A stretch of DNA of 64,000 nt from Dipteris shenzhenensis (lineage: Eukaryota). The position numbers were made by a program, and so were the translations under genes. The DNA lies in the NCBI GenBank assembly GCA_047967505.1, contig CM106538.1. One strand, written 5' to 3'. The notes beneath the pieces were generated by a model. That model worked only from the letters and a program-made list of their open reading frames with translations, was not told the origin of the DNA and made no database searches. This document shows positions 5,963 through 33,504 of this stretch, one piece after another; position 1 is the first letter of the stretch, and each line of letters begins with the position of its first letter.

Positions 5963-7479
5963 GTATCCGTCTAGACTTTCATATATTAAAATTATTAAAA
6001 TTGCTACACCCAACACATTGTGTAGGATATAATTTCTATTGCATTTGAGAAATACATTAATAAATTCTACATATCTTGGTATGTGAACTGTAAAGCGATG
6101 CTGTATTTTTGGCTTGTAGGGCCATGCTGGGCAGGTTGTTTATGTGCTGTGGCCCCAAATACCTTGAAACTGTGTAACGATCATTATAAAACATACAAGT
6201 ACTTTCATAATGTTTAATCTTGTATGCCTTTTTGGCATCTTTTTTCTCACCGCCAGTTTCCTTTCTGCATACCAGTTGGATTTATAGATGTCTTTAGCTC
6301 TCTTTTACCATTTGGCAGTCCTTGAGGGCACAACAACAAATTTTCGACCATGTTCTTTCGGAATTTCGGACAGGCTTGTGGTCCAACCACGGCTGAAAAA
6401 CAGTCTCTTATTTCTTTTCACTGAAAGCAAACTGCCCATAGGCCCTTAGCTAAAGAAGATGGATAGGGATGGTACATGCCAATGTTGCTTGGGTACCCTG
6501 CAAGAGACAATGTAGCATGGCCTATGAAGGTGTTTGACGGTCCAATGGATTTGGAAGGCACATGCCCAGGATCAGGGCACATTTGCTTAGTGAGCCTTGT
6601 GTGTTTAGCTACTAGACAATAAAGACAAGGATGGCTGCATAGAAGCCCTCAAGAAAAAGTTTGAGTTTGAGAAAAATGTCAAATGTAAGTAGTTTTTCTA
6701 TGCATATATAGCTGAGGCTAAGTCAGTAGATGGCTCTAGAATGTTTGTGTGTGCTATTTTTTGCTGCTGCTAGACAGCACAATCCATTATAAAGATGTAT
6801 TTTCATGCTGGGCTGCCATGTGGCAATCTAGGAATAATCCTATAAACATAAGTGTGCTTGCTTTTGCTCGGTTTGGCCCTATAAAAGTACCAGGCGTCTT
6901 TTGTAACATCATCTCCGCAAATTAAAGATTTGTTCAGAGATGGTTAGCACATGTTTGAGCCTAAGTTGCATTAATTTGCTCGAATTTTTTTTTTCGATTC
7001 AAAAAAACGCGAAAAATCGCGATTTTTACAAATTCGAATACGTTCCTTCGATTTTGCATATAATCTCATTGTTTGTCAATTTTTCTTATCTCACGCTTGG
7101 TTCCTCAGCCGAGCATAAGAGATCTAAAAAGGAAAAGAAGGAGTTGTATGCGAGGGGATGGATGGGAGAATATGTCAAGCGATGGGAGAGCGCATATGCT
7201 CGTATCCATCTCGTCTGCTTTTGTATTGAAATCTAGAGCCTTGTGGGCTACAAGTGATGTTGTGTTGTAATTATTGAGATTGTGGATGATTTTTAGAGAC
7301 AATCTTGTGACTTGCAAATACTTTCAAGGCAACATCGAAGGGAACATCAGAAAGTTGAAAAGAATAATCGAATATGCGCAATTGAAGTTTATATTTTCAA
7401 GTCTCAAGGGTTGATCTAGCTATTATGTGTACTAATTCACGTCGATATATTTTAAAATTTCTGCATTAACTTTACAAGT

Positions 7480-7862
7480 CCACCTAATCCATTGAAAACC
7501 ACGTAAATCACTTATACCACTTAGTTCACTTAAATCACTTAAATCACTTAGTCCACTTAAGTCACTTATACCCCTTCATTCACTTAGATTACTTAAATCC
7601 ATAGAAAATTACTTAAATTAATTATACCACTTAGTTCGCTTAGATTGCGTTAATCACTTAAGTTACTTAAATCACCTAGTTCACTTAGATCACTTACACC
7701 ACTTAAATCACTTAGTACACTTAAATCACTTATACCACTTAATTCACTTAGATCACTTAACTTACTTAGTCCACTTAAATCACTTAAGTTACTTAAATCA
7801 TCTAGTCTACTTAGATCACTTATACCACTTAAATCACTTAGTCCACTTAACTCACTTATATG
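7480..7862. repeat. 9-bp-period minisatellite (CACTTAnnn)
   Basis: Runs of cacttaaat/cacttagtc/cacttatac/cacttagat; they produce the repetitive SDLSGLSDLS translation. Confidence 0.9.
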
Positions 7863-7927
7863 ACTTGAACCATCGTTGCAGAAGAAGAGTATTATAAAGT
7901 TATATATGAAGTTTACAATGTACATAA

Positions 7928-8827
7928 TTATGCAGTAGGATCCACATCTACCGTTCCCTGAGTGCTTGGTCCTGCACCCTGCGAATCTATATTAGTGAGG
8001 TCCTCAAAATAAAAAATATCGGTATCCTCAGTTGCATCCAAATCTCCAAAGGACTGTCTGTAGCGTGCAAGCTCAGACTCCAATGTTTGTACACCTGCTT
8101 GTAGGTCCTCGATCTCTTTGGCTTGTGATGCAACGCGATCTTGTAACTTCTCAGCAAGTAACACCTTCTTGACGGAGAGGTATGGCAGATGTGGCCAAGT
8201 CAACAAGATCACTGTGTGCCTCGGGAGTTAACACACGAGGTCTCTGAGACACGGGCTCTCTGTTCTCTGTCCTTGCTCGCTTGCGCTTTGCAGGATGTTC
8301 CTATGCTGTTTCTGACAAGTGATGCTTGTCATTCCAATCCACACGTCGATGCAAGCGTCGTAGACATACACCTGTTGGATGAAATACATGGGTATTTGTT
8401 GGTTATTGGGAATGCTTCCTTCCACCTCTATGAATCGTTGGAGAAGGATGTGGGCTAGGGTTTTGTGCTGCAAATATGACAGCTTGGGCTGTGCATATTT
8501 ATTCCTAGCACTTCCTGAACGAAGAAACAAGGTGTTTCTCACGAACTCTGATGGGCATAGTCTCTGTACTTGTTGAAGAGAGACCGGGTCGCCTTACATG
8601 GTATCATCATCCACTGGACCAGCAGCAAAAATACCTAGTCCCTCTCTGCCCAACATCTCTCTTTGCGCTTGTAAGATAGCCTGAGCCTCAGCGTGATTTA
8701 GCTGGTCTGCTAAATCAGCCTCTTGAGACACAAAAGCATCGTGTGGGCCCTCTTGGATTGGAGGTTGCTCTGGTTGGGGAGGATCTTGTGGGAGAATATT
8801 CTCTAAGTTCTCTCCCTCCATGCTCAT
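7928..8827 (-). pseudogene. hAT cargo ORF-B copy 1: unknown ~295-aa protein with C-terminal coiled coil
   Basis: Pieces 8594-8875, 8228-8542 and 7928-8212 join via one stop and frameshifts (MSMEGENLENILPQDPPQ...LQDRVASQAKEIEDLQAGVQTLESELARYRQ). A near-identical inverted copy lies at 27941-28781. Confidence 0.7.
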
Positions 8828-9262
8828 ACTTAGCCTAAAAAGTGACAACAAGATAAAATTAATTTGTAACCACAAATAATATTAAGTATTTAAACAATAT
8901 TAAACAATTAAATAATATTAAACCTATACAAACATATTTAAATATTTATTGTCGCATCATTTATCATATTTTAAAATTGGACCATCATTTTTATCGCAAC
9001 ATTCAGCTATACAAATAATATTTAAACATTAATTATTGCATCATTTATCATATTTGACAATTGGATCATCATTTTTATCGCATCATTTACTTATACAAAC
9101 AATATTTAAAACATTACTTATCGCATCATTTATCATGTCACTGTAAATATACAAACTGTTCGAACAATGGAGTGGATCCAAACTTGGATGATATATAAAA
9201 CTAAAAATGTTACAAGTTCCATGATCGGTCACTCATGTTACATCCCGGCGTCCAAGAAAGAC

Positions 9263-9793
9263 TCAGTCATTGGCTGGTCTAAGTCCTTGGTTTGGACTGA
9301 GTTGTATACCACATCTTGGAGCAATGTCAGAAATCCCACAAAAATCTGCAGTACTTGGATGTCTATTCGGTTCGGTTGACTTTCCCTGAACCGCAAATCG
9401 TCGTAAACGCCCGATAAGAGCTTCTGCGGGCCCCGTACTTGGCGATTTTCAAGATGTGATGAGACATGGCATACACATCATGTGCAACATCGAAAGGTGG
9501 GGGATTGGTGCAAAGGCACTCTGGAGCAACGTGACGAAATCTAGCAATGGAGCTTCGCACAGTGTTGGGGCTGTCACTGAGTAATGCGGGATAGTGCGTT
9601 CTAGTGCTGCATGGGGTCATCATTCCCCAATCAGAAATGCCCAGATACACCTCCTCGGATGACTCCAAGAAGTGTAGCATAATGTTTTGTGCATGCAAAT
9701 CATTATGTAGGACATTGTGTTGGTGCATGTACTGAATAGTGCGAACTAGTGCACTTAAAATATCAAATACATGCTGACGGACCCGTGGAGCTC
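9263..9793 (-). pseudogene. Cargo protein kinase copy 1, C-lobe
   Basis: YMHQHNVLHNDLHAQNIML, GISDWG, RHVAPE, DVYAMS; continues in frame from 15739 once the Copia and one TSD are removed. Confidence 0.85.
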
Positions 9794-12700
9794 TGTTAGA
9801 ATTATTGTTATAATTTAGCAGTGACCAATGTAATGTAATAAGTAGGTTAGGGGCACTTTTTCCTCATTTTAGAGGTTTTTCCCCCTAACCACAGCTAGTT
9901 CACTAACTACGGTTAGTAAAGGATAAGGTTTTGTCACTTAGACAAAACCTATCCCACTCTTCAGTTGTACTACACTCTTCTATTGCAACTATTGCTTTTA
10001 GCTCTCACTCTCCTACTCTCTTGCTCTCTTGCTCTCACACTCTGCTCTCTCTCCCTCTCCAACTCACATTTGGTATCAGAGCGGTGCTCCTTCCCGGACG
10101 TGCTCTCAGCTCCTTGCCCAAGCTCCTCCTGCAAGTCGAGCTGCCCAAGCTTCTGCTGTTGGATTGTCCCTACAGCCCGTCGCCCATATAATCATACAAC
10201 CGTGCATCGTCGTACAGCCCGTCGCCCGTACAACCGTACATCGTCGTATAGCCCATCGCCCGTACCTTCGCCGTACAGCCATACTGTTTCGTACAGCTGC
10301 CGTACGCTTGTCCGTACCTGCACGCGTTGATAGCGCCATGCGTACGCCCAGTCACTGCTTCAGCCCCTTGCTACGCACGTGATTCGTACAGCAGGCCGAC
10401 TTGTTGTAATTGTTTGTACGTACAAACTTCCAACAGCGCTAGCCAATAGGTCGTTCGTACAGACATTGTTCTGTATAGCTGTCGTACACAGCAGCCCATA
10501 CACAGGAGGGTACCTGTCCATACAACAAGGTTGTACATTCCGTACAGTTTCGTACTTTTGTACAAAGTGTGTCGCCAGCCTTCGTGTGCATTCAAGGTCT
10601 TCCTACAGGTACATTTTGCAGGGAGCTACTGGTTGGTAAATCAAATTTGAGGCAGATTTTTGCTTTGCAGGCCATTTTGTGGGCAGTTTGAACACATTTT
10701 GTGTATTGGGAATTTTGTCAAATTTGGGGCTTTTGCATTTGTTGCAGAGAATTGCAAAAATTTGGGGCTTTTGCAGGCAGAGTGCAATTTGTGCAACATT
10801 TGGGGCTTTTAGACCATTTGCCCCTTTCTAGTTGCAATTTCAAGCCACAAATTGGGGCTTTTGTGTTGGGAGAGCAATTTTGCAGGTTTCAGTTTACACT
10901 GCCTTTCTGTAAGTGTTTTAAAGCACTTTTGGCAGGTTTTGGGAGAGATTGGATGCTCTGGCAGATTTCTGACAGAGACATTACAGAGATTTGAGTTGCA
11001 TTTTCAGCTAGTGCTTGGCTGTATTTTTTGGGACTTGTGCACTCCATTCCCAGCAAGGGAATTCAGATTTGCATTTGCTGTATTTTCTTTCTCAGACATG
11101 GCCCAACAAAATCAGAATGATTTCCAGTTCAGTGGTCTCTCACAAGAGGATAAGCTGGATGGTACCAACTACTCCCTCTGGAGTTTTATTGTACGCAACA
11201 TTCTGATTTCCCGTAATTTGTGGGACTATGTAAATGGGGATGAGATCCAGCCAGCAAATGTGGCACCTAATACCCCTCCCTAGCAAGGAGGAGGCAGAGG
11301 TCGTGCATAGGGTACAGCTGTAGGACAAGTTATTGGTGCAGTTATACCTACCACTCCAGAGCAAAAGAGATGGGATTCATGTGATGCTTTAGCTTTGTCG
11401 TGTATTTCTCTTTCAGTGAAAAGATTCATCATTCCGCATATCCGGTCGTGTAAGACCTCAAAGGCAGCATGGGATATTTTGGAGAGCATGTATGCAGCTC
11501 GGAATGATGCCAGGGTGTCTTTTTTGAAAAGAGAATTGTCTCATACACATATAGAAGAGGGTGACTCCATGTCAGTGCACCTCACAAAGCTACAAGATTT
11601 ACGAGAGCAATTGCTGAATATCAATGAGATCATTCCTGATTCAGAGATAATTACCACCACTCTGAATTCTCTTCCTGAGTCTTATCTCAGCTTTCATACC
11701 TCGCTGAATTTGTCATTGAGGGGGCGTGCAAATCCTCTCAATTTTCAGGAGTTGATAGGACTTCTGTTGCAGGAAGAGCAGACCCAGGAAAAACATGGCT
11801 CACGAGCAGGTGAACATGCCATGCTTTCAAAATTCAAGCCTAAAGTAAAGGGACAAGCAAAGACATCAGCAAATCAGCCTTCCAGTGGTTCAGGAAGCCT
11901 TCTCAAAAGGCTAAGGGTGATGCAGGTAAGCCCAAGAAGAAGGGAATATGCCATTACTGCAAAAAGCCAGGTCACTACATTGGAGAATGCAAGAAGAGGC
12001 TTGCAAAAGAAAAGAAAAACAGCTCCGGTATGGCTGTTTCAGATTCAGCTCCTCATGCATCTGACAATGAGCAAGCTACAGCTAACTTTGTGGAGCACAA
12101 CTATGCCTTCTTGTCTTGCATTTCAGACTCTCAACTGGCTGCTCCGGATATTACAGCCACTTGTAATGATGACTCTTATGCTTTTCTGACATGCAGTTAC
12201 AATTCTTCCTAGGATGCATCAGCTTTCAGTGTCAATGAGACAAAATACATGGTATTTTGATAGCGGTTCCTCAAAGCATATCACTTCCAGGAAGTGTCTT
12301 TTCACATCTCTGCATCCACCTCCCGTTGGTAAAAAGGTCACATGTGCCAACAAGTCCTCCTATTCAGTTCGTGGTACAAGACAAGTTGAACTTACAGCCA
12401 TTGATGGCTCAACTTTCAAAATTTCTGATGTCTTGTATGTGCCTGGTATCACAAAAAATCTACTTTCAGTGTCCACTCTTAACAGAGCTGGATTTTTTGA
12501 AGATGACAAGTGTGCAGTCCATGACAGAGAGCATGACTATGCTTTGAGATTGTCTAGCACTTTGTTACGTGGTCTTTTTCAGCTTGACATGAATGAGAAA
12601 AGACTAGCACATGCTCTTGCAGTTTCCACTCCTACTGCTGCTATGTAGAATGCGGAGTTATGGCATGCCATATATGGACACATGCATTATGGCAGCTTGA

Positions 12701-15700
12701 TGACACTTCAAAAACATGCTATGGTTGATGCATTGCCTCCTCTTGAAACACCTTTTCCACATGCCTGTAAAGGGTGCATTCTTGGTAAAATGCACAGATT
12801 TCCTTTCAAGAAGGATGGATCAGTAAAAGCTGTTCGAAAATTATAGCTTATTCATAGTGATGTTTGTGGTCCCATGAGGACTCCATCATTGGGTGGTCAT
12901 CTTTACTTTGTCACTTTTATAGATGACTACTCCAACTACACTTGGGTTTATGGGCTGAAACGCAAATCAGAAGTGTCTATGGTTTTCAAACACTTTGCAG
13001 CCATGGTTGAAAATGAATCAGGACTCAAGATACATACATTACACACAGATACAGGAGGGGAGTATTTGTCTGCAGATTTTGATGCATTTTTGAAAGACAA
13101 GGGCATTGCACATCAGCTTACAGTGAGGCTAACCCCTCAACAAAATGGCAAAGTTGAGAGAAAAAATCTTACTCTTATGGAGATGGATAGATGCATGCTA
13201 AAAAGCAAAAGATTGCCTCACAAATTTTGGCTTGAAGGTCTCATGTGTGCCAATTATGTTTTGAATGAGGCTCCCACAAAAGCTTTGAAGACCAAGAGGG
13301 AGAAAGCCTTCTGTGAATCATTTTCATGTTTTTGGATGCCTTGCATATGCTTATGTGCCCGTTGAGTTTCGGCATAAGTTGTCTGATAAGGCAATCAAAT
13401 GCATTTTTGTTGGGTACAATGCAGAGAGCAAGGGCTACCGTCTCTACAATCCTGTCACACGCAAGATTATTGTCAGTAGAGATGTTATATTTTCAGAAAA
13501 TTCAGCTCACACTCAAGCTGAATTTGATATGCCTACTTCTTCCGATGATGTCTTTGACGGATTACTACCCATTGCCTTGGGTTCCCCTGCTGATATATCT
13601 GATGCAAATCGAAATTTCCAGATACCTTCACATGCTCCGATTCAGCCACAGGATGTCTTACCACCTCCACAAGCAGTGGAAGAGGTTGTTCAGCAAGAAA
13701 TTGCAGATATACATGCAGTAAAAACAGTTCCAAATTGGCTGTTACAAACTCTCAGGGAGAGTAAAATTGATGCTCCATTACCTGGCAGAACTCGGAGTGC
13801 TGTAAGGCATGGGGGGGGAGCTCTTTCAGTTGAATCAGCTTATGCAGGTACTCTTCTTGATGAGGAGGAGCCTGAGACATTTGAAGAAGCACAGGATAAT
13901 GTGCATTGGATGAATGCCATGCACGATGAATTGCAGTCCATTCAGAAAATTCAGACATGGGAAGTTGTCGATTTGCCACCAGGTAAACATGCCATAGGTA
14001 CACGGTGGGTTTTCAAAGTCAAAAGAAAGCCAAATGGGTCCGTTGATCGGTACAAGGCAAGGCTGGTTGCAAAAGGATATGCTCAGAAAAAGGGCATAGA
14101 CTATGAGGAGACTTTTGCTCCTACATCCAAAATGACAACCATCCGGTCAGTTATAGCCATGGCTGCAAATTTTGAATGGAATATTCATCAGTTGGACATT
14201 AAAACAGCTTTCCTTAATGAAGACTTGTTGGAAGAGGTTTATGTCAAACAACCTCAGGGCTTTGAAATTTCAGGAAATGCACTTCAGGTATGCAAGCTGA
14301 ATAAAGCTTTGTGTGGGCTGAATAAAGCTTTGTGTGGACTGAAACAAGCCCCACGTGCATGGTATGCCAAAATTCATGCCTTTCTGACCAGCAAGGGGCT
14401 GCACAATAGTCCAAGTGAGAGCACCCTCTACATCAAGAAGGATGGGGGGGATATTTTAGTCATCATTCTTTATGTAGATGACTTACTGCTCACATGGTCA
14501 AATGAGGATAATTTTGCAGATTTTAAAGCTGAATTGCAGACCACTTTTGACCTGTCAGATTTGGGGCTGCTACACTTTTATTTGGGGATCCGGTTCACTC
14601 AAGAGAAAAGTGGCATCGTTATGTCTCAATCCAAGTATGTGCAGAAACTCTTGGATAGATTCAACATGCAGGATTGTAAGCCCATAGCTACTCCCATGGA
14701 GTCGGGGCTGAAGCTTACAATGCACGATGGAGGTGAATCAATTGATGTCACACTCTACAGTCAAGCTGTTGGATGCCTCAGTTATCTTTGCAATACACGA
14801 CCTGATATTCAGTTTGCAGTTTCTCAGGTGAGCAGATATATGCACAGCCCAAAGACTATGCATTGGCAGGCTGTAAAACGCATCTTCCGTTATTTGCAAG
14901 GTACAAAGTCTTTTGGCTTGATGTTTCCCAGGGGGGGTGACTTGCAGATGCATGCCTACAGTGACTTAGATTGGGTTGGAGACTATGACACTAGGCAGTC
15001 CACAAGTGGCAATTGTTTCTTTTTGGGCAAAGCTTGTATTTCTTGGTTAAGCAAGAAACAGTGTACAGTGGCTACCTCCTCATGTGAAGCTGAGTACAGG
15101 GCAGCTTTCATAGCGACAGTTGAATGTGTTTGGCTGCGTCGTTTATTTGCTTATCTTCATCTTTCATTGGAGGGTCCTTCTCTAATTCTCACTGATAGTC
15201 AGAGTGCTAATGCAGTGGCAAAGAATCGTGTGTTTCATGCTCGCACGAAGCACATTGAGGTTCACTATCACTACGTTAGAGAGAAGTTGCATGCAGGAGA
15301 GATCAGTATGATCTATGTGTCAACACATGACAATGTTGCAGACATTTTCACCAAAGCACTTTCACGTGAAAAGTTTGAGGCATTTCGCAATGCCCTGAAC
15401 TTATCTCCTTTTGGTGATTGATCATTTCCTTGTACATGACATTGGCACTGCAGGGGGGTGTTAGAATTATTGTTATAATTTAGCAGTGACCAATGTAATG
15501 TAATAAGTAGGTTAGGGACACTTTTCCCTCAATTTAGAGGTTTTTTTCCCTAACCACAGTTAGTTCACTAACTACGGTTAGTGAAGGATAAGGTTTTGTC
15601 ACTTAGAGAAAACCTATCCCACTCTTCAGTTGTACTACACTCTTCTATTGCAACTATTGCTTTCAGCTCTCACTCTCCTACTCTCTTGCTCTCCTGCTCT

Positions 15701-15733
15701 CACACTCTGCTCTCTCTCCCTCTCCAACTCACA
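9794..15733 (+). mobile_element. Full-length Ty1/Copia LTR retrotransposon (decayed ORF)
   Basis: 275-bp TG..CA LTRs (9794-10068, 15459-15733); TSD AGCTC; PBS TGGTATCAGAGC at 10071 (tRNA-iMet); PPT aggggggg. Domain order gag, PR (WYFDSG), IN, RT (YVDD), RH; several stops and frameshifts. Confidence 0.97.
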
Positions 15734-15738
15734 AGCTC

Positions 15739-16300: not shown

Positions 16301-16424
16301 ATACGGGAGATGAAAACTAATCTGCACGTGTGGTAGGAGGCATAAATGGAGGCACAAAAGATGTGAAATGTGATCGTGCATGTGGTGGGAGATGTGAAAA
16401 ATGTTTGTTTGTAGGAACTCTTGG

Positions 16425-16770: not shown

Positions 16771-16873
16771 CTAGTGTTAGATGGTGAAGTCCACGATTAG
16801 GTTATACCTAGGTCATTTTTTGTGTTTTGATTTTCTATAGTATGTTACATGATTTAAGGCTTGAGCTTGAGTT

Positions 16874-22500: not shown

Positions 22501-25500
22501 GGAAGGGCAAAAAGCCTAAACCTTCTGCAGGACTTCTTCCAGATGTGATTGGGAGTTTGCCACATGCACATGATGAAGAGGAAATGAAAAAGACTGAGAT
22601 GTGCAGAGCATGGGGAAAAATCAGAAATCAGAATTGTTTGTTTTTCTTTGATTCTGGGGCAAAGGCAAATTTCATAACTCCTGATATGGCAGGAAGGCTT
22701 GGCATCGAGCCTGAGGAAATGGGGCCATCCGGCATGTGTGAAATGGCCAACCCTGAAGTCAACACACCTGTCACTCCTATCATTGGCAAGTTGAGGATGC
22801 ATATCCAGGAATATCAGGATGCAGAGGACTTCTACATTATGCCTTTGCCAGAGTGCGATGCTTTGCTTGGGATGCCTTGGATGTACAGGGTGGGGGTTGA
22901 TGTGCAGATGAGAAACAAGAAGATTTCTATAACTCATAGAGGCAAAAATCATGTACTTGATGTAAAGTTGAAAGGGGAGTCCATCCCTGTAGTTTCAGCT
23001 TCTTGTATTTCCAATGTAATAAAGCGTCATATTTCAGCGTACTTGATTTTTGTCACAGAGGACAGCCAACCAGTTCAGGAGGGCTCTACTCTTTCTGCTT
23101 TAGATAGAGAAAGGGCTGCTTTTATTTCAGATTTTCAGGATTGTTTCTCAGATGCACTTCCTCAAGAATTACCTCCCAAGAGGCCCGAGGATCATCAAAT
23201 TGATATAATTCCAGGAAGCTCACCGCCTAATATACCTCCCTATCGTGTCAGTAAGGCACAACAGGAAGAGATAATGTCACAAGTGAAGGAACTCTTAAAA
23301 AAGGAATTAATACAGCCAACTTCCAAGTAATTCTCCTTACTGTTTCCCTGTGTTGCTTGTGCAAAAGAAGGATGGCAGTTGTGTATTGATTATAGGGCTT
23401 TGAATAAAGTCACAATTAAGAACCGTTTTCCAATTCCACGCATTGATGATATATTGGATCGGTTGGAAGGTTCCTCAATGTTCAGTTGTATTGACCTTAA
23501 AAGTGGATACCATCAGATAAGGATACGGCCTGAAGATGTCTACAAGACTGCCTTCCGCACTTCATTTGGCTTATATGAGTTCCTTGTGATGCCTTTTGGT
23601 TTGACTAACGCACCTGCCACTTTCAATAGAATGATGGACAGAATTTTTAGAGCACACAGAAAGTTTGTGGGCACTTTCTTCGATGACATCATTGTGTTCT
23701 CTAAAAATGAGCAGGAGCACAGGAAACACCTCACTATTGTGTTTCAAGAGTTGAAAAGACACAAGCTATTAATAAACACCAAGAAAAGTGAGTTCTTTAT
23801 GCATGAGATTCATTTTCTTGGTCATATAGTGTCAAAGGATGGAGTCAAGATGGATCCTGCAAAAGTTGAGGCCATAAGGAGTTGGCCAATTTTGAGAAAT
23901 CTGCATCAAGTCAGAAGCTTTCTTGGGTTGTGTTCATACTATCGGAGGTTTATAAAGTACTTTGCAGAAATTGCTTCTCCCTTGCATGCTTTACAAAAGA
24001 AAGCTGTACCGTTTCGGTGGGGACCAAAGGAGAATGCAGCTTTTGAAGAGCTGAAGCAAAAGTTGTGTTCTGAACCCGTTATTATCTTGCCAGATCTTGC
24101 AAAACCCTTTGCTGTAACTTGTGATGCATGTGGAAACAGCATAGGAGGCACTTTGATGCAGGATGGCAGAGTGGTTGCATATGAGAGTAGAGTTCTCAAA
24201 GATGCTGAATTGTACTTGCAGATATACGAGAAGGAAATGTTAGCAGTGATACATGCTTTGACCACATGGAAACATTACCTTCTTGGAGCTGATTTTTATG
24301 TGCAGACAGATCATCAGTCACTTAGATATTTTCTCACGCAGAGAAAATTATCTGAAAAGCACATGAGATGGGCTAACTTCCTCTCAATGTTTCATTTTCA
24401 AATTGTACATGTGCCGGGTAACAAAAATGTCGTGGCTGATGCACTTTCCAGGAAACCACAGCCTGAAGCAGTCTCCAAGAAACCCAGTGTTTCAGCAGTG
24501 AGCATTGCTTACAACAATGTGTTAGATGTGATGAAAGATCAGTATGTTAATGATGCTGATTTTTCAACTATTTATGATCAGCTTTCTGATGGTCAAAGGC
24601 ATGATCACTATATGTTGAAAGAGGGTTTCATTTTGATGCATGGACGACTCTGTGTCACTGATCAGATGCGACAGAAAGTCATAATGGAAAGTCATGCTCC
24701 TCCATAGGCAGGACATAGGGGAATTACAGCAACAATTACAGCAGTGGAGCAATACTTTTATTGGCCATCTTTGAGGAAAGATGTGGAAGAATATGTGAGA
24801 ACATGCATGGTTTGTCAGAAAGTAAAGTTTGACAGGCAGAAGGCACCTGGGTTGTTACACCCTTTGCCAATTCCGGATAGACCATGGCAAAGCATAGCTA
24901 TGGATTTTGTGTTTGATCTTCCACGTACTCCTACTGGACATGATGGATTGTGGACAATAATTTGCAGGTTTAGCAAACAAGCCCACTTTGTGCCAGTAAG
25001 AAAGAAAATTACAGCAGATCAAATGGCCAAATTGTTTTTGCAGCATGTCTTCAAGTATCATGGGATGCCTGAATCCATAATCAGTGATAGAGATCCGAGG
25101 ATGACCAGCCTCTTTTGGAGAGGACTGTTTGAAAATATGGGCACTACGCTGAATTTTTCATCATCTTTTCACCCTCAGTCTGATGGACAATCGGAGCAGG
25201 AAAACTCTACCATCTTGGATATGTTTAAATGCTATGTCTCAGACCACAAAAGCAAATGGGATATATACTTACAATAATACGGTGCACACATCCACAGGTA
25301 AAGCACCTTTTGAAATAGTGGAAGGTGCCAGGAAGATACCTCCCATTTTGCATAGAAAAGAGAAAATCTTCGAAGCTGATCGTTTTGTGGAAAGCCTTGA
25401 AGAGGCTTACAAGAAGATCAAATATGCCTTGCAAAGAAGTGAAGACAAGCAGAAAAGAGCAGCAGATAAGCACCGCAGGGAATTGCTATTCACAGAAGGT

Positions 25501-27940
25501 GATTGGGTTTTGCTGCGTTTTCAGAAGGCAAGGCTGAAAAATAAGAAAGGCAAGGAAAGGTTGTACACAAAGCTGAACATGCGTTACTATGGTCCTTTCC
25601 AGGTTTCTGAAAAGATAAACGAGGTAGCTTGAAGTTGCCTCCGCATTGGAAGATACATAATGCCTTTCATGTGAGTTTATTAAAGCAATATCATGGAGAT
25701 ATTCCCGAGGATGTACCTGATGAGGTGCAGCCTGAAGTGGAAGAACAGGATGAACTTCTGGTCCCAGAGCAGATTCTGGCACACAGAGATAGAAAGCTCA
25801 AGGGTAAAGTTATCCGTCGCTACTTGGTAAAATTTCAAAATTACCCATCACTTGATGCGAAATGGATGGAGGAAGGTGAACTGGCAGATTCACATGGGAT
25901 ATTGCAGCTTTACCTTGATGCTTTCCAATTAGAGCCGACTACGGTCCGGGCTCCTACAGGTAGTTCAACAGAGCGAGCGTCTGGAGCATTACCTGATGTT
26001 TGAGAGGGGGGTAGCACCTCCACTCCCTCAGTACAGACGGGCTCACTGTGATTTCATGAGGTCGCTTGATGACACTGTATGTTTCATCCGAGATACTGAG
26101 CTGACAGTATTTCTGCTGTGAGACTTCATGATATTGATGCATCTTGACTATTGATCGCCGAGGATCACATAGATTTTGAGCAGTATATATGGATGGATGC
26201 ATGCCTCTCCTAGCCATATTTTCATGGTCTCTGTATACTATAGCTGCGGCTTTCTTGTATACTCTTTTATGCTATATTTCATGCTCGCTCCTGTGTTTTG
26301 GGGCAGCAAACTGTGGTTTGCTGTTTCAAGAGAGGGGTATGTCACGGGGGCGTGAAATTCTAAGTACTTTAATGTACTACTAGACCGTGACAACTTTGGT
26401 TTTAAAAGTCCAAGCGTGGGCTTAATAATGTGTAATTAAACGCGGCATGGTGCCTAGCACATAAGCGTAATTAATCCCTAGGCCCAAAGGCATTCCAAGG
26501 AATTAAAAGAGTGGTTGTTGGGAAATGATGATGTGGCATTTTTAATGGGCCCCCTAGAGGGCCATGTACCTTCAGTGGCCCCCCTAGAGTTCCAGGTGGC
26601 TCTAGTGCCTTCTACATGCTCCTTTGCCATTCCTGGACCTTCCTGGGCCTTCTAAACTTCACATGTGTGGTTTTCTCTCTCATCTTCTCCCTTTGTTGAG
26701 ATTTTGGACTGGTTTTTCAGCCTCCTTCAGCTGAATTCCGTTTTTCTTCATAACTCCTCACCCGTTTGGATTCCTCGACTTCCGTTTGGCCCGATGGCTT
26801 CCCCTCTGCCTCCCCTTCGTAGTGATATGCTTTTCCCTCCGTGCGTTTGGTAGAACGAGCAGAGCTGAGCACTTCTTTTGCTGGTCGAATTTGCAAAAGT
26901 GGCTTTTTTTGGACCTTTTTTCTTCTACCGCCTCCTGGGCCTCTCCTCTTGCAAAGCTACAGCTTTCTGTTGAATTTCGAGTGGTCCGACGCGCTGGTTG
27001 ACTGGTTTTTCTCAGTTTTGGAGGACTTTCCGGCGATGAAACTTCTCCAAAACCTTCTCAATGCATTCCTCTCTGAAGCACGCTTCTTTTGAGCCTAAGA
27101 ACTCCCACTTCTTCGCGACAGAAGTGCTTCTTTTCGCATTTTTAAGTGGAATTCTTGCTGGTCGGCTCTTGTAAATGCTCTTTCTTCATGCCTTTGCACT
27201 CCTCTTTGGCTGAGAATGCAATTGGGCATTGGCTACTATGTCCTCTTGGCGATTGAGGACTTGGTTCGAGTTTTCAGGGCTTGGTGAGTTGTGATTTTGC
27301 TACTGCAATTTCTTTTTGCCATAAGCTATTGGTTGGCCTCGTGTGCCGCCTCTTTCTTGGCTCACAGGTGCCCAGGCAGTGCTACATGAGTCATTCTTTG
27401 GTTGGGTACTTTGCTGATTTTATTTTGGAGCTTTGAAAAGCTTTGTGAATGCCATCTGGAAACCACTCAAAGAGAGTGCAGCTGGGGTGCAGTGTGATTG
27501 CATCTGGACAGCCAATGGAATTGCACTCGGAAAAGAGAATGCCTTTGGGTTGAGCCTATGGGTTAAGTGCACTTATGTGATGGTGTTCTATGCTTGAAAG
27601 CCTTGCGAAGGCTTAGTGAATTGGGGCTGCGTGCTCAGTTGCAGGGAAGGTCTCCCAGATGCAACTTGTAATCATTTCACTGTGAAATATAAAGAAATAC
27701 CGAAAGGGGCGCCACGGTGTTTGGGGCCAATCGGGTGCACTTGTCTATGTCTGTTGAGCAGGGGCATTCTAGCCTCCATCCCTTTTTCAGTGGTGTTGTT
27801 TGTGAACAAATGGGTAAATGCCAAATGGTGATCATGCAATGGTTAATGGTTGTGATATATGCTTTGTGAGCTGTAAATAAGTACTGAAGTGATTAAAGGT
27901 TTAGTTCCACTGCCCTCTGAGTGATTAGAGGCCGGTTTCA
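19512..27940 (+). mobile_element. Ty3/Gypsy chromovirus, 5' LTR truncated
   Basis: 3' LTR 26340-27940 (TG..CA, after PPT aagagagggg); 5' LTR remnant 19512-20752 equals 26700-27940. Gag with CFICKEEGHRSYDC, PR FDSGAK, RT FFDD, RH, IN, and chromodomain EQILAHR..YLVKFQNYPSLDAKW. Confidence 0.95.
20754..20771 (+). promoter_or_regulatory. Primer-binding site, tRNA-Glu-like
   Basis: TGGTTCCGTTGCCGGGAC follows the LTR CA after a 1-nt gap; its reverse complement GTCCCGGCAACGGAACCA matches the plant tRNA-Glu 3' end as I recall it. Confidence 0.75.
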
Positions 27941-28781
27941 GCAACCTGCAGTCCAATAGGGCTCACAAGGTGCTTTTGTGCCTCAAGAGGCTGATTTAGA
28001 AGACTAGCTAGATCACACGGAAGCTCAAGCTATCTTACAAGCGCAAAGAGAGATGCTGGGCAGAGAGGGACTAGGTATTTTTGCTGCTGGTCTAGTGGAT
28101 GACGATACCATGCAAGGCGACCCGGTCTCTCTTCAACAAGTACAGAGACTATGCCCATCAGATTTCGTAAGAAACATCTTGTTTCTTCATTCAGGAAGTG
28201 CTAGGAATAAATATGCACAGCCCAAGTTATCATACTTGTGGCACAAAACGCTAGCCCACATCCTTCTCCAACGATTCATAGAGGTGGAAGGAAGAATCCC
28301 CAATAACCAACAAATACCCATGTATTTCATCCAACAGGTGTATGTCTACGATGTCTTGCATCGACGCGTGGATTGGAATGACAAGCATCACTTGTCAGGA
28401 ACAGGAAAGGAATGTCCTGCAGAGCGCAAGCGAGCAAGGACAGAGAACAGAGAGCCCGTGTCTCAAAGACCTTGTGTGCTAACTCCCTAGGCACATAGTG
28501 ATCTTGTTGACTTGGCCACATCTGCCATACCTCTCCGTCAACAAGGTGTTACTATCGAGGAGTTACAAGATCACGTTGCATCACAAGCCAAAGAGATCGA
28601 GGACCTACAAGCACGCGTACAGACGTTGGAGTCTGAGCTTGCACGCTACAGACAGTCCTTTGGAGATTTGGATGCAGCTGAGGATACTGATATTTTTGAT
28701 TTTGAGGACCTCACTAATATAGATTCGCAGGGTGTAGGACCAAGCACTCAGGAAACGGTAGATGTGGATCCTAGTGCATAA
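27941..28781 (+). pseudogene. hAT cargo ORF-B copy 2 (5' end cut by the Gypsy insertion)
   Basis: REMLGREGLGIFAAG...IEELQDHVASQAKEIEDLQARVQTLESELARYRQSFGD; inverted repeat of 7928-8767. Confidence 0.7.
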
Positions 28782-29136: not shown

Positions 29137-31217
29137 TCACTCTATTTCGCATTCTACTTCGACTTCGTTGTTGTCACTAAGTAGCTCAAGCTCGTCTTCC
29201 TCTTCACTAAATGCACCCTCAATAACTAATTCTATAGTCAATCGTTGTCCAGCAATTCTCATTACAACGGCTTCACTTGCTGTCCTAGCCGCAATATTAA
29301 ATCCTTTTAACAATCGTAGATTTCCAAAGCAAAATACCAAATCTGCAGCTCTTGATGGCTTTGAGCGATTGCGTCTCTTAGAATGAATAAAATCGTATGC
29401 ACTCCAATTTTGCTCACATGCATCCGATGATGCAGTAACAGAAAGCATACGAGTTGCAACATGCTGTAACTCCAATGTCTCTCCACCATATTCCTTCCAC
29501 CAAGTAGGTGCAATAGTCGTCTTAATAGCATCAAGATTCCAAGGATCTCCAAAAGAGCCTTCGCGATTCGTATATCTCACTCGTTGCTGGTAGGCCAGTT
29601 TTCCTTGATCTCCAGGAAGTAACTTTTTACAAACCTCTCGGAAGTTACTTATGACTTCAGGATTCTGTGATTGAGCATGCATTTGATATTGTGGATGCAC
29701 TGCAAACGCAGCTCCATGCAAAGGGGTGTGCATTTGCTTCCATCTCTTATTGGCCAAATATACCACTTGTTGCTTCTCCCTAGGAGCAAAGCGCATAAAT
29801 TCTTCAACTTGTCGTATTGCTTCTGACATCTTCCAATACACTTTACCCATAACAAAGGCATCAGCATTAACTGTCCTCAATACTGTTACAAATGGTTCTA
29901 CACCTTCTTTTATTCTTTTAACTTTTTTCAGAATATAGATGATTGTACAAGATGTACACATTTAGAGCCCAGTATTGCGTACTGCGTCTTTTTTTCTAGC
30001 CAATTCGCCCATCGTCTATCAGCAACAGTCTCGACTAAAGCTTGATGCACTTCCAACAATCTAGCAAGAACTAGAAAAGAAGTGGCAAATCTAGTTTGAT
30101 GAAATTGCCTGAGTTGCTTCACAGAGTGCTCTCTGAATACTGCATGCAAGTATTGATGACTCTTTATAAAACTCACTACGATGTTAGCATCTTGCAGTGT
30201 TGGTTGCACAAATGGCAATTGTCAAATATCCTTCAACAATAAGTTGAGAGTATGAGCGCCACATGGCACCCATGTCAGAGTGGGATATTTTGCCATGACC
30301 ATCTCACCTGCGATCTTGTAATTCGATGCATTATCTATTACTAATGCAGTAACATTCTCACTGCCACCAACTTTGCGGATTGCTCTTTTGTATATTTTTA
30401 CAATATATGTCGAAGTTTTTTCTTTTAGAGACGTGTCAATACTCTCCAAAAATATAGTTCCCTTGGGAGTAATGCACATTACATTTATCAAGGGTCTGGT
30501 CTGCTTGCTAGTCCATCCATTAAACGCAAGAGTGCACCCATATATAGGAATAAAGTCTAATATCTTTTTTTTCAAGCAATACGCCACAGTTTGTTTGACT
30601 CTATCAAGATGATCGGTACGCATTTTATTATAATCTGGCAAAATAAATCCTGGTCTAGCACATGATTTCAAGGCATTACGAAACGTGTCATCTCTCATGA
30701 CATTGAATGGTATACCATTTTTAACAAATGCTTCTGTCCATCTTAAGTGCTCTTCATGCACTTGTCAAAGAAATCCATCCTCCATAGAAGATTGTTCTCC
30801 CTTTTTTCTCTTCTTTACCTGACAGACATTAGTCGCATCAAAACTCACCTGCGACCCGCTTGCTAGCATATCTACATCACCTTCATGTATGGATACACTC
30901 CTCGCATTTATTGGTGCTTCTCCTTCAACCATCTCATCAACCTCAGTGCTCGCATCTTGTTGATTTGCACAATTTCTTATTAGGGTTGGATTAACCACTT
31001 TCTTTACTTTCTCTAAATACGATTTGCATAACGGAAGAATATCAGACGGAGTGCATGTGCAAGCTCCAACGTCACTGCCTATTCCGAGAAAATGTTGCTT
31101 GATGCGAGTAGAACCACCTGTGAATTTGTGTCCATAATATTTACACTGCAAGAAAGAGACCGAGGCATGTACTTTTTGTATCTTCGTCACGTATGACCAA
31201 ATCTTGCTGCGCACCAT
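29137..31217 (-). pseudogene. hAT transposase (BED finger, DUF659-type catalytic region, hAT dimerisation domain), disrupted
   Basis: MVRSKIWSYV..CKYYGHKFTGGSTRIKQHFLG (BED); TLAFNGWTS, VIDNASNY, WVPCGAHTLNLLLKDI, TRFATSF; WWKEYG..ATRMLSVTASSDACEQNWSAYDFIHSKRRNR. In-frame stops near 30765 and 30222; frameshift near 29945. Confidence 0.92.
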
Positions 31218-31559
31218 GCTTTTGAAGTTGCCAAAAACAAAATGCAAAAAAAACTAATTTGAGTATACAATAGAAACATATTGCAATACACATTTTATAA
31301 AAAACAACACATATCCTTTGAAAAACACGTTCAAGCATGCAATATATTAATTGTCATTCAATCACGCTCTTTTAAAATAATTCACATTCTATTGAAAGAA
31401 TATTAAATATTCATTCAAAAGAAAGTGTAAGAATGAGACAACTCTTCTAAGAACTTTTAAAACTTTCAATTCGTACACTTTAAAACTCTTTGTATTCTTT
31501 CACATTCTATTCAAAGAATATTACATATTCATTTAAAGAAAGTGTGAGAATACAAACAC

Positions 31560-32900
31560 AATAAAATCATATTTCTCACATGAGGTCTAGGGAACTCAAC
31601 GAGAAGATCCTAAAACTCCCACATACAAAAATTTTCACAAGAGATCTAAGGAACCCAACAAGGAGATCTTAAAACTTTCACAAACTAATTTAATAATTTC
31701 ATAAACACGAAAACAAGCCCAGTTCTCACAAGAGATCTAAGGAACTTAACAAGGAGATCCTAAACTCCCACATACAAAAATCTATTCACATGAGATCTAA
31801 GAAACTCAACAAGGAGATCTTAGAACTCCCACAAACAAATTTCATAGACACAAAAACAAGCCCATTTATCACAAGAGATCTAAGGAACTCACCAAAGAGA
31901 TCCTAGAACTCCCACGTACAAAAATCTATTCACATGAGATCTAAGAAATTCAGCAAGGAGATCTTAGAACTCCCACAAATAAATTTCATAGACACAATAG
32001 CAAGTCCATTTATCACAAGAGATTTAAGAAACTCACCAAAGAGATCCTAGAACTCCCACGTACAAAAATCTATTCACATGAGATCTAAGAAACTCAACAG
32101 GGAGATCTTAGAACTCCCACAACCAAATTTCATAGACACAAAAACAAACCCATTTATCACAAGAGATCTAAGGAACTCACTAAAGAGATCCTAGAACTCC
32201 CACGTACAAAAATCTATTCACATGAGATCTAAGAAACTCAACAAGGAGATCTTAGAACTCCCACAAACAAATTTCATAGACACAAAAACAAGCCCATTTA
32301 TCACAAGAGATCTAAAGAACTCACCAAAGAGATCCGAAGGAGATCTTAAAACTCCCACAAACAAATTTCATAGACACAAAAACAAGCCCATTTATTACAA
32401 GAGATCTAAGAAACTCACCAAAGAGATCCTAGAATTTCCACGTACAAAAATCTATTTACATGAGATCTAAGAAACTCAACAAGGAGATCTTAAAACTCCC
32501 ACAAACAAATTTGATAGACACAAAATCAAACATATTTCTCACAAGAGATCTAAGGAACTCAACAAGGAGATCCTCAAACTCTCACAAAAAAATTTATCTC
32601 ACAAGAGATCCAAGGAACTCAACAAGGAGATTCTAGAACTCCCACAAACAAATTTCAAACACATAAATATATAAATTATTTTTATCACAAGAGATCGAAG
32701 GAACTCAATAAAGAGAATTTAGAACTTCCACAAACAAAGTTCAAACACATAAATATCTAAAATATTTTTATCACAAGAGATCGAAGGTACTCAATAAAGA
32801 GAACCTAGAACTCCAACAAACAAAAGAAAAGACCAAAACCAAAATCCAAACAAGAGATCTCAGGAACTCACAATGAGATCCTAAAGTTCCCTGATAAAAA
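31560..32900. repeat. Subterminal tandem repeat array of the hAT element (144-bp higher-order unit)
   Basis: tctattcacatgagatctaag recurs at 31781, 31925, 32069 and 32213 (period 144). Each unit has two gagatctaag(g/a)aactca sub-units; copies degenerate at both edges. Confidence 0.9.
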
Positions 32901-33504
32901 TCTATCTTGTTTCGGACCTTCTAGATTGCTTTCACAACCTTGAGGACCGTTCTCCTTCTTTTCCTTTTTAGATGTCTTATGCTCGGCTGAGGAACCAAGC
33001 GTGAGATAAGAAAAATTGGCAAACAATGAGATTATATGCAAAATCAAAGAAATGTATTTGTCCTAATATAAGTTTATTCGTACAAATATGTGGTGATGAT
33101 GTGGCGATTTATATAAAAAACGTGACGTGTCACCGTTTTTTTAATCGATTTTTTCTTCCATTCGAATCATTCGAGCAATTTTCTCGATTTTTTCGAATCA
33201 CAAATTCGAATTTTTCTACTTAGGTTTGAGCTGCTCTAGGCCTCCAAAAACTGGACGAAATCTTTGTTTTAGGCTTCCTGGCCAGATTGGTACCAAATCC
33301 ATTTCACCTACTAGGATTGGAATGCCAGGGGCCAAAAGGGTGCTAGAAAGAAATCGTTTTTGCTGTTTTTCACCTCTTCCAGGGCTGTTGCTGCTGATTT
33401 TGACTGCCAGACTGCTTGGAAACTGCTCCAAATTAATTCACATACTTGGTTGCTGCTGCTCCAGGGTTTCGAGAGCCCTCTGATCAGTTAACTGTCTCCT
33501 AGAC

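What the first reader, a model, noticed from the sequence alone, without database searches (positions are those of the whole stretch)
6961..33223. 26-kb hAT unit is a giant palindrome carrying a two-gene cargo in each arm
Seen: one 8-bp TSD (GTTTGAGC) and short TIRs enclose two inverted arms, about 7044-16400 and 17603-33050. Read inward from the right end: terminus, 144-bp array, transposase, segment A (29080-28871), ORF-B, spacer, kinase. Read inward from the left end: the same order, but jumping from the subterminal block (7143) straight to segment A, so array and transposase are missing. Established: 8-bp TSDs and a BED/DUF659/hATC transposase define hAT elements, whose TIRs are normally short. 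Inference: this is either a foldback-type hAT with kb-long gene-bearing arms or two inverted elements that moved as one macro-transposon. It may represent an undescribed family that mobilises a kinase plus a partner protein.
Basis: partly seen in the sequence, partly recalled or inferred. Interest (0 to 1): 0.88.

Follow-up and report, generated by a model that had tools for sequence, protein, structure and literature searches.

The report
Dead, partly palindromic hAT composite transposon
This 26-kb block is one old, inactivated hAT-type transposon insertion whose inside is an imperfect mirror-image duplication of a kinase gene and a partner gene, later broken up by two retrotransposons and a rearrangement; it resembles structures known from maize Ac elements.

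Summary
The outer frame is real. An 8-bp target-site duplication (GTTTGAGC), 8-bp inverted termini (7 of 8 match) and matching subterminal motif clusters bound 6961-33223. A DUF659 + hAT-dimerisation transposase lies in the right arm.

The "giant palindrome with two genes per arm" is only partly true:
- Four blocks are inverted at 93-95% identity: a, b, c (ORF-B) and E (kinase 5' part).
- Block D (the kinase 3' two-thirds) is in direct orientation. The right-arm kinase therefore has its N-lobe on + and its catalytic part on -.
- The right ORF-B is cut at its 5' end by a Gypsy element that has no target-site duplication and has unrelated flanks.
- A Copia element with a 5-bp duplication sits in the left kinase.
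- Every ORF, the transposase included, carries stops or frameshifts. No lesion is shared between arms, so their common ancestor had an intact ~330-aa kinase and an intact ~300-aa ORF-B.

ORF-B belongs to a small, unnamed, Pfam-less family (19 proteins found).

The left arm equals the right arm minus exactly 29082-32951 (transposase + array). There are no inner termini.

Best reading: a composite or foldback hAT derivative of the kind made by alternative transposition of maize Ac, now a fossil. Other copies could not be searched because no genome was held.

The parts
6953..6960 (.). left copy of the 8-bp target-site duplication GTTTGAGC
6961..7036 (+). left terminus: TIR CTAAGTTG plus TCGA-motif subterminal region. 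It is a shortened inverted version of the right end.
7037..7143 (-). block a' (inverted copy of 32952-33058, 95.3%)
7143..7338 (-). block b' (inverted copy of 28871-29081). It abuts a', so 29082-32951 is missing from this arm.
7496..7866 (.). 9/18-bp minisatellite (about 41 units) found only in the left arm, between b' and c'
7928..8827 (-). ORF-B, left copy (pseudogene). It has the full 5' end, one stop after ...DDDTM, two 1-bp indels in the middle third and a further stop.
8874..9136 (.). AT-rich spacer with 18-bp and 84-bp tandem repeats between kinase and ORF-B. Block D starts inside it at 8976.
9233..16119 (-). kinase, left copy (pseudogene). Lesions: ATG at 16119, TGA at codon 12, 1-bp deletion near 15840, Copia insertion in the exon, 20-bp deletion, late TGA.
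9794..15733 (+). nested Copia LTR retrotransposon: gag, rve and RVT_2 domains, 275-bp LTRs 96.4% identical, 5-bp TSD AGCTC
15812..16401 (-). block E: kinase 5' part plus upstream sequence, left arm of the central inverted repeat. A 53-bp tandem duplication lies at 16111-16216.
16402..17601 (.). unique centre (1.2 kb) with 66-79-bp tandem repeats. No ORF with a family match was tested here.
17602..18141 (+). block E': kinase 5' part, right arm. ATG at 17833. Pkinase N-lobe (profile positions 5-75) on the + strand. TGG>TAG stop. It ends at the breakpoint 18141, followed by TT filler.
18144..19116 (-). block D, right copy: kinase 3' two-thirds on the - strand, that is DIRECT relative to the left copy. 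Lesions: 1-bp insertion, 4-bp deletion, HND>HNN, 63-bp tandem duplication.
19117..19510 (.). segment y: unrelated to the left arm, with an open 132-codon frame on +. It is a repeat in run X1, where a contig runs on past the Gypsy insertion point.
19511..27940 (+). nested Gypsy/Ty3 LTR retrotransposon: gag, protease, RVT_1, RNase H and integrase domains, 1241-bp LTRs 99.0% identical. No target-site duplication, and the two flanks (y and ORF-B) are not contiguous.
27941..28781 (+). ORF-B, right copy (pseudogene). It is 5'-truncated at the Gypsy edge and has three stops, but keeps the family's reading frame throughout.
29137..31217 (-). hAT transposase pseudogene: degenerate BED-like finger, DUF659, hAT dimerisation domain. 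At least 2 in-frame stops in the first 400 codons, then frame changes.
31571..32907 (.). 144-bp tandem array with degenerate 60-94-bp sub-periods
32952..33058 (+). block a
33059..33223 (+). right terminus: TCGA-motif cluster and TIR CTACTTAG
33224..33231 (.). right copy of the target-site duplication GTTTGAGC

Best explanation
This is a single, ancient integration of a composite (foldback-type) derivative of a DUF659-class hAT transposon.

Origin (inferred). Both outer ends are the same kind of end. From each end an arm runs inward through the same internal sequence (a, b, ORF-B, spacer, kinase) to one central fusion region, and no inner termini are present. Alternative (aberrant) transposition of a hAT element, followed by re-replication and end-joining, yields this kind of product. 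Abortive gap repair with strand switching could do so too. The product is two fractured copies from the same terminus, in inverted orientation, inserted as one unit with one 8-bp TSD. One arm lost exactly the transposase plus the array, a Ds-like internal deletion.

State at the split of the arms (shown). The parent sequence carried an intact, intronless, stand-alone kinase of about 330 aa and an intact ORF-B of about 300 aa, co-oriented and convergent with the transposase.

Later history (order shown by divergence):
- The unit decayed neutrally.
- A Copia element landed in the left kinase.
- The right arm was rearranged, so that its kinase 3' block now lies in direct orientation next to a foreign repeat, y.
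- A Gypsy element that lacks a TSD now joins y to a 5'-truncated ORF-B. This is most simply explained by recombination between two Gypsy copies with loss of what lay between them.

Present state. The unit encodes nothing functional. At most it could act as a hairpin-RNA source against its own family (inference only).
For: - One TSD and one pair of ends. GTTTGAGC flanks both sides and the TIR matches 7 of 8. Subterminal motif clusters occur only at the two outer ends, and no internal TIR sits with such a cluster.
- The left end aligns as an inverted, shortened right end. The a'|b' junction equals the right arm minus 29082-32951.
- Inverted blocks a, b, c and E differ at a pooled 108 of 1769 sites, 6.1%.
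- The arms carry private insertions: Copia with TSD AGCTC in the left arm only, a minisatellite in the left arm only, Gypsy in the right arm only. The palindrome is therefore old and is not a read or assembly hairpin.
- Relative ages by K2P distance: arms 0.049-0.072, Copia LTRs 0.0375, Gypsy LTRs 0.0098.
- No inactivating lesion is shared by the two kinase copies or by the two ORF-B copies. Their ancestor was therefore intact.
- ORF-B is a real family. There are 12 hits at E<=1e-3 among 1.84 billion representatives and 19 proteins with the profile. The full-length members of 269-297 aa are colinear with the right copy.
- The Gypsy element has no TSD (TGCAT or GCATT versus GCAAC). In run X1, segment y at 97% identity continues into sequence that is neither Gypsy nor ORF-B.
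- Precedent. Maize composite insertions consist of two fractured Ac copies, both derived from the Ac 5' terminus, in inverted orientation and flanked by perfect 8-bp TSDs (bioRxiv 10.1101/2020.01.07.897926, sections 15 and 16 read; model in eLife PMC4270019, abstract and section 6 read).
Against: - No other copy, donor site or empty site could be examined because no genome is held. The time and manner of origin are therefore inferred from anatomy alone.
- A fresh composite insertion would have identical arms that include the transposase. Here one arm lacks 3.87 kb, which needs an extra deletion or a deleted template.
- The direct orientation of block D is not predicted by the model and needs a further, unresolved rearrangement.
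- Block D differs at only 30 of 886 sites (3.4%) against 6.1% for the inverted blocks (Fisher p=0.003). This could mean D-right is a younger copy. However, its coding part differs at 27 of 600 sites (4.5%, p=0.15), and the low value comes from an AT-rich stretch with 3 differences in 286 sites.
- The Gypsy element without a TSD could also mark an assembly jump between two Gypsy copies.
- The family might naturally have long inverted ends, in which case identical ends prove less.
Confidence: 0.5

Rival explanations
1. In-situ origin. An ordinary hAT element with naturally long (about 180-270 bp) inverted ends inserted here. The inverted duplication of b, ORF-B and kinase arose afterwards within the element, for example by palindrome-forming repair or template switching.
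For: - The rearrangement of block D and the TT filler at 18142-18143 show that template-switch or end-joining events did occur inside the unit.
- Homology between the outermost 76 bp (left) and 165 bp (right) is patchy, unlike blocks a to c.
Against: - In the left arm, a' abuts b' exactly where the right arm has a, then 3.87 kb, then b. This is what a deleted copy of the whole right arm gives. An internal duplication would have to land precisely at the inner edge of a'.
- No trace of a different left interior remains.
Confidence: 0.15
2. Macro-transposon. Two separate neighbouring elements in inverted orientation, one autonomous and one a deletion derivative, moved together using their outer ends.
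For: - The arms differ by a Ds-like internal deletion.
- The arms differ at about 6% of sites.
- Synonymous changes are somewhat in excess between arms, 32 of 85 coding changes. dN/dS is 0.48 for the kinase and 0.36 and 0.69 for the two ORF-B segments. Separately evolving functional copies would give this pattern.
Against: - No inner termini are present. No TIR with a subterminal motif cluster lies anywhere between 7200 and 33000.
- The centre is a simple continuation of one arm.
- The synonymous excess is not significant once the observed transition bias is modelled (p=0.07-0.09).
Confidence: 0.12
3. Family-typical foldback hAT. The two-armed, gene-bearing architecture is the normal transposing form of an undescribed hAT lineage that carries a kinase and ORF-B as accessory genes.
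For: - Both genes were whole and intronless in the arms' ancestor.
- Pieces of block D (18296-18661, about 90% identical) and of the centre occur in contigs of run X1 at depth about 3, so parts of the cargo region exist elsewhere.
- Capture of whole genes is unusual for hAT (PMC3260210, passages read).
Against: - There is no second copy in the 64-kb window.
- No related locus was found in JGI metagenomes, where the only hit is a 27%-identical kinase, or in viral contigs.
- The arms are unequal.
- X1 holds only 6% of the sampled words of the centre.
Confidence: 0.1
4. Assembly artefact. The palindrome, or part of the interior, is a mis-join, for example a hairpin read or a jump between Gypsy copies.
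For: - The Gypsy element lacks a TSD and its flanks are unrelated.
- The right-arm kinase is incoherent.
- No independent reads of this genome were available.
Against: - The arms differ at 6.1% of sites and carry private insertions and tandem duplications. A hairpin artefact would give identical arms.
- The matching TSD and cognate ends tie the two outer halves to one locus.
Confidence: 0.05

Closest known systems
Composite insertions made by alternative transposition of maize Ac/fAc (sister-chromatid or reversed-ends transposition plus re-replication; Zhang et al. 2014 eLife PMC4270019; Wang et al. 2020 bioRxiv 10.1101/2020.01.07.897926)
   Same: - hAT superfamily.
- Two fractured copies derived from the same terminus, in inverted orientation.
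- Unequal arms joined at one internal fusion.
- The whole is flanked by a perfect 8-bp TSD.
- It may carry non-transposase DNA.
   Different: - The maize cases are recent laboratory alleles with identical arms, a known donor and linked megabase duplications.
- Here the arms differ at about 6% of sites, one arm has an extra 3.87-kb deletion, and the interior holds two once-intact genes.
- The donor and any linked duplications are unknown.
Ds2 and Ds-like elements with filler DNA, and compound Ds elements (Du et al. 2011, PMC3260210)
   Same: - hAT deletion derivatives that keep the ends and replace or lose the transposase.
- LTR retrotransposons nested inside decaying copies.
- Occasional foreign DNA between the termini.
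   Different: - Maize filler is short and consists of gene fragments with introns.
- Here the passengers were two complete intronless ORFs, and the structure is two-armed.
Double Ds (one Ds inserted in inverted orientation into another; recalled, and mentioned in PMC3260210)
   Same: Inverted repeat of hAT element sequence inside one unit.
   Different: Double Ds keeps four termini and an inner TSD. Here only one pair of termini exists.
Mu killer (inverted duplication of a partial MuDR that silences the family; recalled from memory, not read here)
   Same: A palindromic transposon derivative that could give hairpin RNA against its own family.
   Different: It belongs to a different superfamily. 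No expression or small-RNA data are available for this locus.
Foldback elements with long inverted arms (FB, Galileo; PMC4168063 seen in the search listing only)
   Same: Kilobase-long inverted arms bounded by one TSD.
   Different: They belong to the P and FB superfamilies with 7-9-bp TSDs of other kinds, and their arms are built of tandem repeats, not genes.

Membership tests
hAT superfamily | 8-bp target-site duplication | tested here: met
   GTTTGAGC at 6953-6960 and 33224-33231, abutting both termini
hAT superfamily | short terminal inverted repeats with subterminal short repeats | tested here: met
   CTAAGTTG / CTAAGTAG match at 7 of 8 positions. TCGA-type hexamers cluster only at the two ends. 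The terminal pentamer does not fit the YARNG consensus that I recall.
hAT superfamily | transposase with the hAT C-terminal dimerisation domain (and DUF659 in this subgroup) | tested here: met
   PF05699 E=2.7e-8 and PF04937 E=2.2e-34 on the - strand at 29137-30764
hAT superfamily | N-terminal BED zinc finger | tested here: inconclusive
   PF02892 scores E=0.12 and 12.8 bits, below the cut-off of 20.6. It sits at the expected place, and a Cys position reads Tyr.
hAT superfamily | intact, active transposase | tested here: not met
   At least 2 in-frame stops in the first 400 codons, followed by frame changes
Alternative-transposition composite insertion (maize Ac type) | two inverted, fractured copies that start from the same kind of terminus | tested here: met
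   The left end plus a', b', c' is an inverted copy of the right end plus a, b, c
Alternative-transposition composite insertion (maize Ac type) | one TSD around the whole unit and no inner termini | tested here: met
Alternative-transposition composite insertion (maize Ac type) | donor-site footprint and a linked duplication or deletion | not testable with these tools
   no genome held
Macro-transposon of two complete elements | inner termini of both elements retained between the outer ones | tested here: not met
   No TIR plus motif cluster lies inside the unit. The lone 8-mer at 29177 sits in the transposase C-terminal tail without any cluster.
   None in the window, none in JGI metagenomes, none in viral contigs. 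The source genome could not be searched.
Perfect palindrome with the same gene order in both arms | every shared block in inverted orientation | tested here: not met
   Block D is a direct repeat. The right kinase halves lie on opposite strands.
Eukaryotic protein kinase (Pkinase, PF00069) | N-lobe, catalytic loop, DFG-like and APE motifs | tested here: met
   Pkinase E=4.4e-11 for the left C-part; N-lobe E=3.2e-6 and right catalytic-loop piece (profile 98-132) E=5.4e-5. HNDLHAQN, DWG and APE are read. The best PDB relative scores only E=2.4e-4. Both copies are inactivated.

The most novel reading that the evidence does not exclude
An undescribed hAT lineage whose autonomous elements carry two accessory genes next to the transposase. 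One is a very divergent stand-alone protein kinase. The other is a member of the unnamed, Pfam-less ORF-B family (conserved core plus C-terminal coiled coil). This locus would then be a two-armed derivative that was mobilised as one unit. The kinase and ORF-B would be a transposon-borne functional pair, for instance modifying host or transposase proteins, rather than captured debris.
Probability: 0.15. Interest if true: 0.7.

Novelty: new variant of a known kind. Interest (0 to 1): 0.36.

Why it matters
Palindromic composite insertions of hAT elements have been shown mainly in maize laboratory alleles. An old natural example in another genome would show that the process leaves lasting products, which can reach 26 kb once other elements nest inside.

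The more interesting residue is the cargo. hAT elements rarely carry foreign genes. Here two complete intronless genes were present when the arms split: a kinase with no close relative, and a member of a small conserved family without name, Pfam model or recognisable fold. If intact copies link them to the same termini, this would be a hAT family with accessory genes. If not, the locus is an ordinary transposon graveyard in non-coding DNA.

Tried and rejected
SEARCHES THAT FOUND NOTHING USEFUL
- Source genome: not held. Earlier scan notes: none for this genome or these sequences. The word search gave only unrelated bacterial items.
- Word-indexed protein searches found nothing for ORF-B at near lengths or for the kinase piece at longer lengths. 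HMMER later found ORF-B relatives, so these blanks reflect sensitivity. The kinase was not searched with HMMER because the single job went to ORF-B.
- JGI metagenome scan with the kinase: 1 locus, a 27%-identical unrelated kinase.
- Viral contigs: no hit for ORF-B or for the kinase, so there is no sign of a giant-virus origin, despite one viral cluster among the Atlas look-alikes.
- Sequencing runs: one listed holder (X1, contigs, share 0.06) and no RNA holder listed. When laid it covered only fragments, so it neither confirms nor contradicts the internal joins.
- The 18-nt continuation of segment y in X1 is absent from the window.

ORF-B FUNCTION
- No Pfam family passed the cut-off in any of the 7 homologues scanned.
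- 0 of 10 clusters carry a name.
- The AlphaFold model has mean pLDDT 68.2.
- Foldseek against the PDB gave 0 matches at E<=0.001.

OTHER READINGS TRIED
- Segment y ORF: no Pfam hit. Atlas recognition was below threshold.
- I first read the middle of ORF-B as an intron. The homologues show it is coding, and the left copy is frameshifted.
- Purifying selection between the arms: the apparent dN/dS below 1 is not significant under the observed transition bias.
- D-right as a younger copy: not robust.
- The internal TIR-like 8-mer at 29177 was rejected as a chance match. About 4 are expected in the window, and this one has no motif cluster and lies inside the ORF.

NOT DONE
- VPS26 host gene: only the three + frames of 1-6960 were scanned. 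The - frames and the right flank were not.
- Literature searches for kinase-bearing hAT elements listed nothing relevant. This covers only the held open-access library.
- Supplementary files of the maize papers (junction sequences) were not seen.

Full report
1. OUTER FRAME

The unit 6961-33223 is bounded by GTTTGAGC on both sides (6953-6960 and 33224-33231). Its termini are CTAAGTTG and, read on the other strand, CTAAGTAG, a 7 of 8 match. The 8-mer occurs 5 times in the 64-kb window against 2.66 expected, so the significance lies in both copies abutting the inverted termini. Short TCGA-type hexamers total 48 hits in the window. They reach 4 or more per 200 bp only in 7001-7200 (4) and 33001-33200 (9). 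The unit therefore has one cognate pair of ends and no inner ends.

The right arm holds a transposase on the - strand, with DUF659 at E=2.2e-34 and the hAT dimerisation domain at E=2.7e-8. The BED finger is only a sub-threshold remnant (E=0.12). The gene is dead: two in-frame stops fall in the first 400 codons and the frame changes further on. This is a hAT element by TSD, TIR and transposase.

2. WHAT IS AND IS NOT PALINDROMIC

Self-comparison and pairwise alignment give four inverted blocks:
- a, 7037-7143 / 32952-33058, 95.3%.
- b, 7143-7338 / 28871-29081, 94.9%.
- c, 7839-8769 / 27940-28870, 93.2%.
- E, 15812-16401 / 17602-18141, 94.4%.

Pooled, these blocks differ at 108 of 1769 sites.

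The left end aligns as a shortened inverted right end. The a'|b' junction is the right arm with exactly 29082-32951 (transposase and 144-bp array) removed.

Block D does not fit. It is 8976-9793 plus 15739-15811 on the left and 18144-19116 on the right, and it is a direct repeat (BLAST; a second program). It holds the kinase from the hinge to the stop, plus part of the spacer. In the left arm, E and D form one colinear kinase gene on the - strand. In the right arm the N-lobe is on + (17833-18117, Pkinase profile 5-75) and the catalytic-loop part is on - (18894-19112, profile 98-132).

Both right-arm breakpoints map to the same position of the gene, after ...LERW. The joins are 18141, then TT filler, then 18144, and 19116|19117. 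Beyond D lies a 394-bp segment, y, with no counterpart in the left arm.

3. NESTED ELEMENTS

- 9794-15733 is a Copia element: gag, integrase and RVT_2 domains, 275-bp LTRs 96.4% identical, and a 5-bp TSD AGCTC. It sits inside the left kinase exon.
- 19511-27940 is a Gypsy/Ty3 element: gag, protease, RVT_1, RNase H and integrase domains, with 1241-bp LTRs 99.0% identical.
- The Gypsy element has no TSD: TGCAT or GCATT on the left against GCAAC on the right.
- Its right flank is ORF-B starting at about codon 19. The left arm runs on uninterrupted through that point.
- Its left flank is y. In contigs of the one public run that shares words with the centre (X1, share 0.06), y occurs at 97% identity in a 1299-bp contig of depth 10.6. 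That contig continues past the Gypsy insertion point into sequence that is neither Gypsy nor ORF-B and is absent from the window.

The two Gypsy flanks therefore never were neighbours. The simplest account is recombination between two Gypsy copies with loss of the sequence between them. An assembly jump would look the same.

4. THE TWO PASSENGER GENES

The kinase is an intronless, stand-alone domain of about 330 aa. It has a G-loop, a catalytic HNDLHAQN, DWG in place of DFG, and APE. It is very divergent:
- Pfam Pkinase E=4.4e-11.
- Best solved relative E=2.4e-4.
- No word-sharing relative among longer proteins.

ORF-B lies about 400 bp downstream on the same strand, convergent with the transposase. 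It is a real family:
- phmmer against 1.84 billion representatives gave 12 proteins at E<=1e-3, the best at 49% identity.
- A profile search gave 19 proteins among 3891 candidates.
- Full-length members have 269-297 aa and are colinear with the right copy over its whole length, so there is no intron.

The family has no recognisable annotation or fold:
- No Pfam match passes its cut-off in the 7 proteins scanned.
- 0 of 10 clusters carry a name.
- The AlphaFold model is of moderate confidence (pLDDT 68.2).
- It has no PDB fold match (0 at E<=0.001).

The ORF-B protein has an acidic N-terminus, a conserved core, a basic stretch and a C-terminal coiled coil.

5. STATE OF THE GENES

- Left kinase: TGA at codon 12, a 1-bp deletion, the Copia insertion, a 20-bp deletion and a late TGA.
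- Right kinase: TGG>TAG, the split with inversion, a 1-bp insertion, a 4-bp deletion and HND>HNN.
- Left ORF-B: a stop after DDDTM and two 1-bp indels with a further stop.
- Right ORF-B: 5' truncation and three stops.

None of these lesions is shared between arms. The sequence from which both arms descend therefore had both ORFs intact.

Between the arms, dN/dS is 0.48 for the kinase and 0.36 and 0.69 for the two ORF-B segments. With the observed transition bias, 32 synonymous changes out of 85 is not significant (p=0.07-0.09). Neutral decay after the split is sufficient to explain the data.

6. ORDER OF EVENTS

K2P distances are 0.049-0.072 for the arms, 0.0375 for the Copia LTRs and 0.0098 for the Gypsy LTRs. 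Block D is less diverged overall (30 of 886 sites, p=0.003). Its coding part is not clearly so (27 of 600, p=0.15), and the effect comes from an AT-rich stretch. I therefore do not claim that D-right is younger.

The arms' divergence and their private insertions and tandem duplications exclude a hairpin-read artefact for the palindrome itself.

7. INTERPRETATION

The unit has these features:
- one TSD;
- one pair of ends of the same kind;
- two inverted arms of unequal length meeting at a single unique centre;
- no inner termini.

This anatomy matches the composite insertions that alternative transposition of maize Ac produces. Those contain two fractured copies, both derived from the same terminus, in inverted orientation and flanked by a perfect 8-bp TSD (bioRxiv 10.1101/2020.01.07.897926, abstract and sections 15-16 read; model in PMC4270019, abstract and section 6 read).

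I take this, or an equivalent strand-switching repair product, as the most likely origin (about 0.5). It was followed by a Ds-like 3.87-kb deletion in one arm, neutral decay, the Copia insertion, an unresolved rearrangement of the right kinase, and Gypsy-mediated loss.

The rivals are:
- an in-situ duplication after insertion (0.15);
- a macro-transposon of two elements (0.12), disfavoured by the absence of inner ends;
- a family-typical foldback element (0.10);
- an assembly error (0.05).

Whether the kinase and ORF-B were true cargo of the parent element or donor-flank DNA swept along cannot be decided without other copies. Capture of foreign genes by hAT elements is rare and usually fragmentary (PMC3260210, abstract and passages read). 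That makes two complete ORFs the most unusual feature here.

8. LIMITS

- No genome was held.
- There is no second copy in the window.
- No related locus was found in JGI metagenomes or viral contigs.
- The look-up of contigs encoding the ORF-B homologues was closed.
- The host gene (VPS26) was not verified (one search covers only the + frames of the left flank).
- Supplementary files of the maize papers were not seen.
- The TIR consensus of hAT elements and the Mu killer parallel are recalled from memory, not tested.

Noticed in passing
window 19117-19510: Segment y has an open 132-codon frame on + with no family match. In run X1 it is a repeat (depth 10.6), and a contig there shows the site without the Gypsy element. 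It is probably a piece of another, unidentified repeat family.
   Followed up: partly
window 7496-7866: A minisatellite of about 41 units of 9 bp (18-bp super-unit) is present only in the left arm, between blocks b' and c'. The right arm has a single seed unit at 28860-28871.
   Followed up: no
window 16426-16763: The centre holds 72-79-bp tandem repeats. Each unit contains CTAAGT...ACTTAG, the same hexamers as the element's termini, 17 bp apart. This may be chance.
   Followed up: no
window 16111-16216 and 18357-18483: Arm-private tandem duplications. A 53-bp unit doubles the kinase start region in the left arm. A 63-bp unit doubles the kinase stop region in the right arm. An X1 contig lacks most of the latter (it skips 18342-18420).
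   Followed up: partly
window 1-1700, 1995-3042, 48133-49764, 55678-57372, 61006-63230: Further degraded relatives of the nested Copia element, 75-86% identical. The window is dense in retrotransposon remains.
   Followed up: no
window 33494-33577 and 33717-33800: An 84-bp direct repeat (97.6% identical) lies just outside the right end of the unit.
   Followed up: no
window 15734-15746 / 10069-10082: The Copia primer-binding site TTTGGTATCAGAGC, as I recall, matches the plant-type initiator tRNA-Met 3' end. This hints at a green-lineage genome. The only run sharing words is labelled algae metagenome.
   Followed up: no
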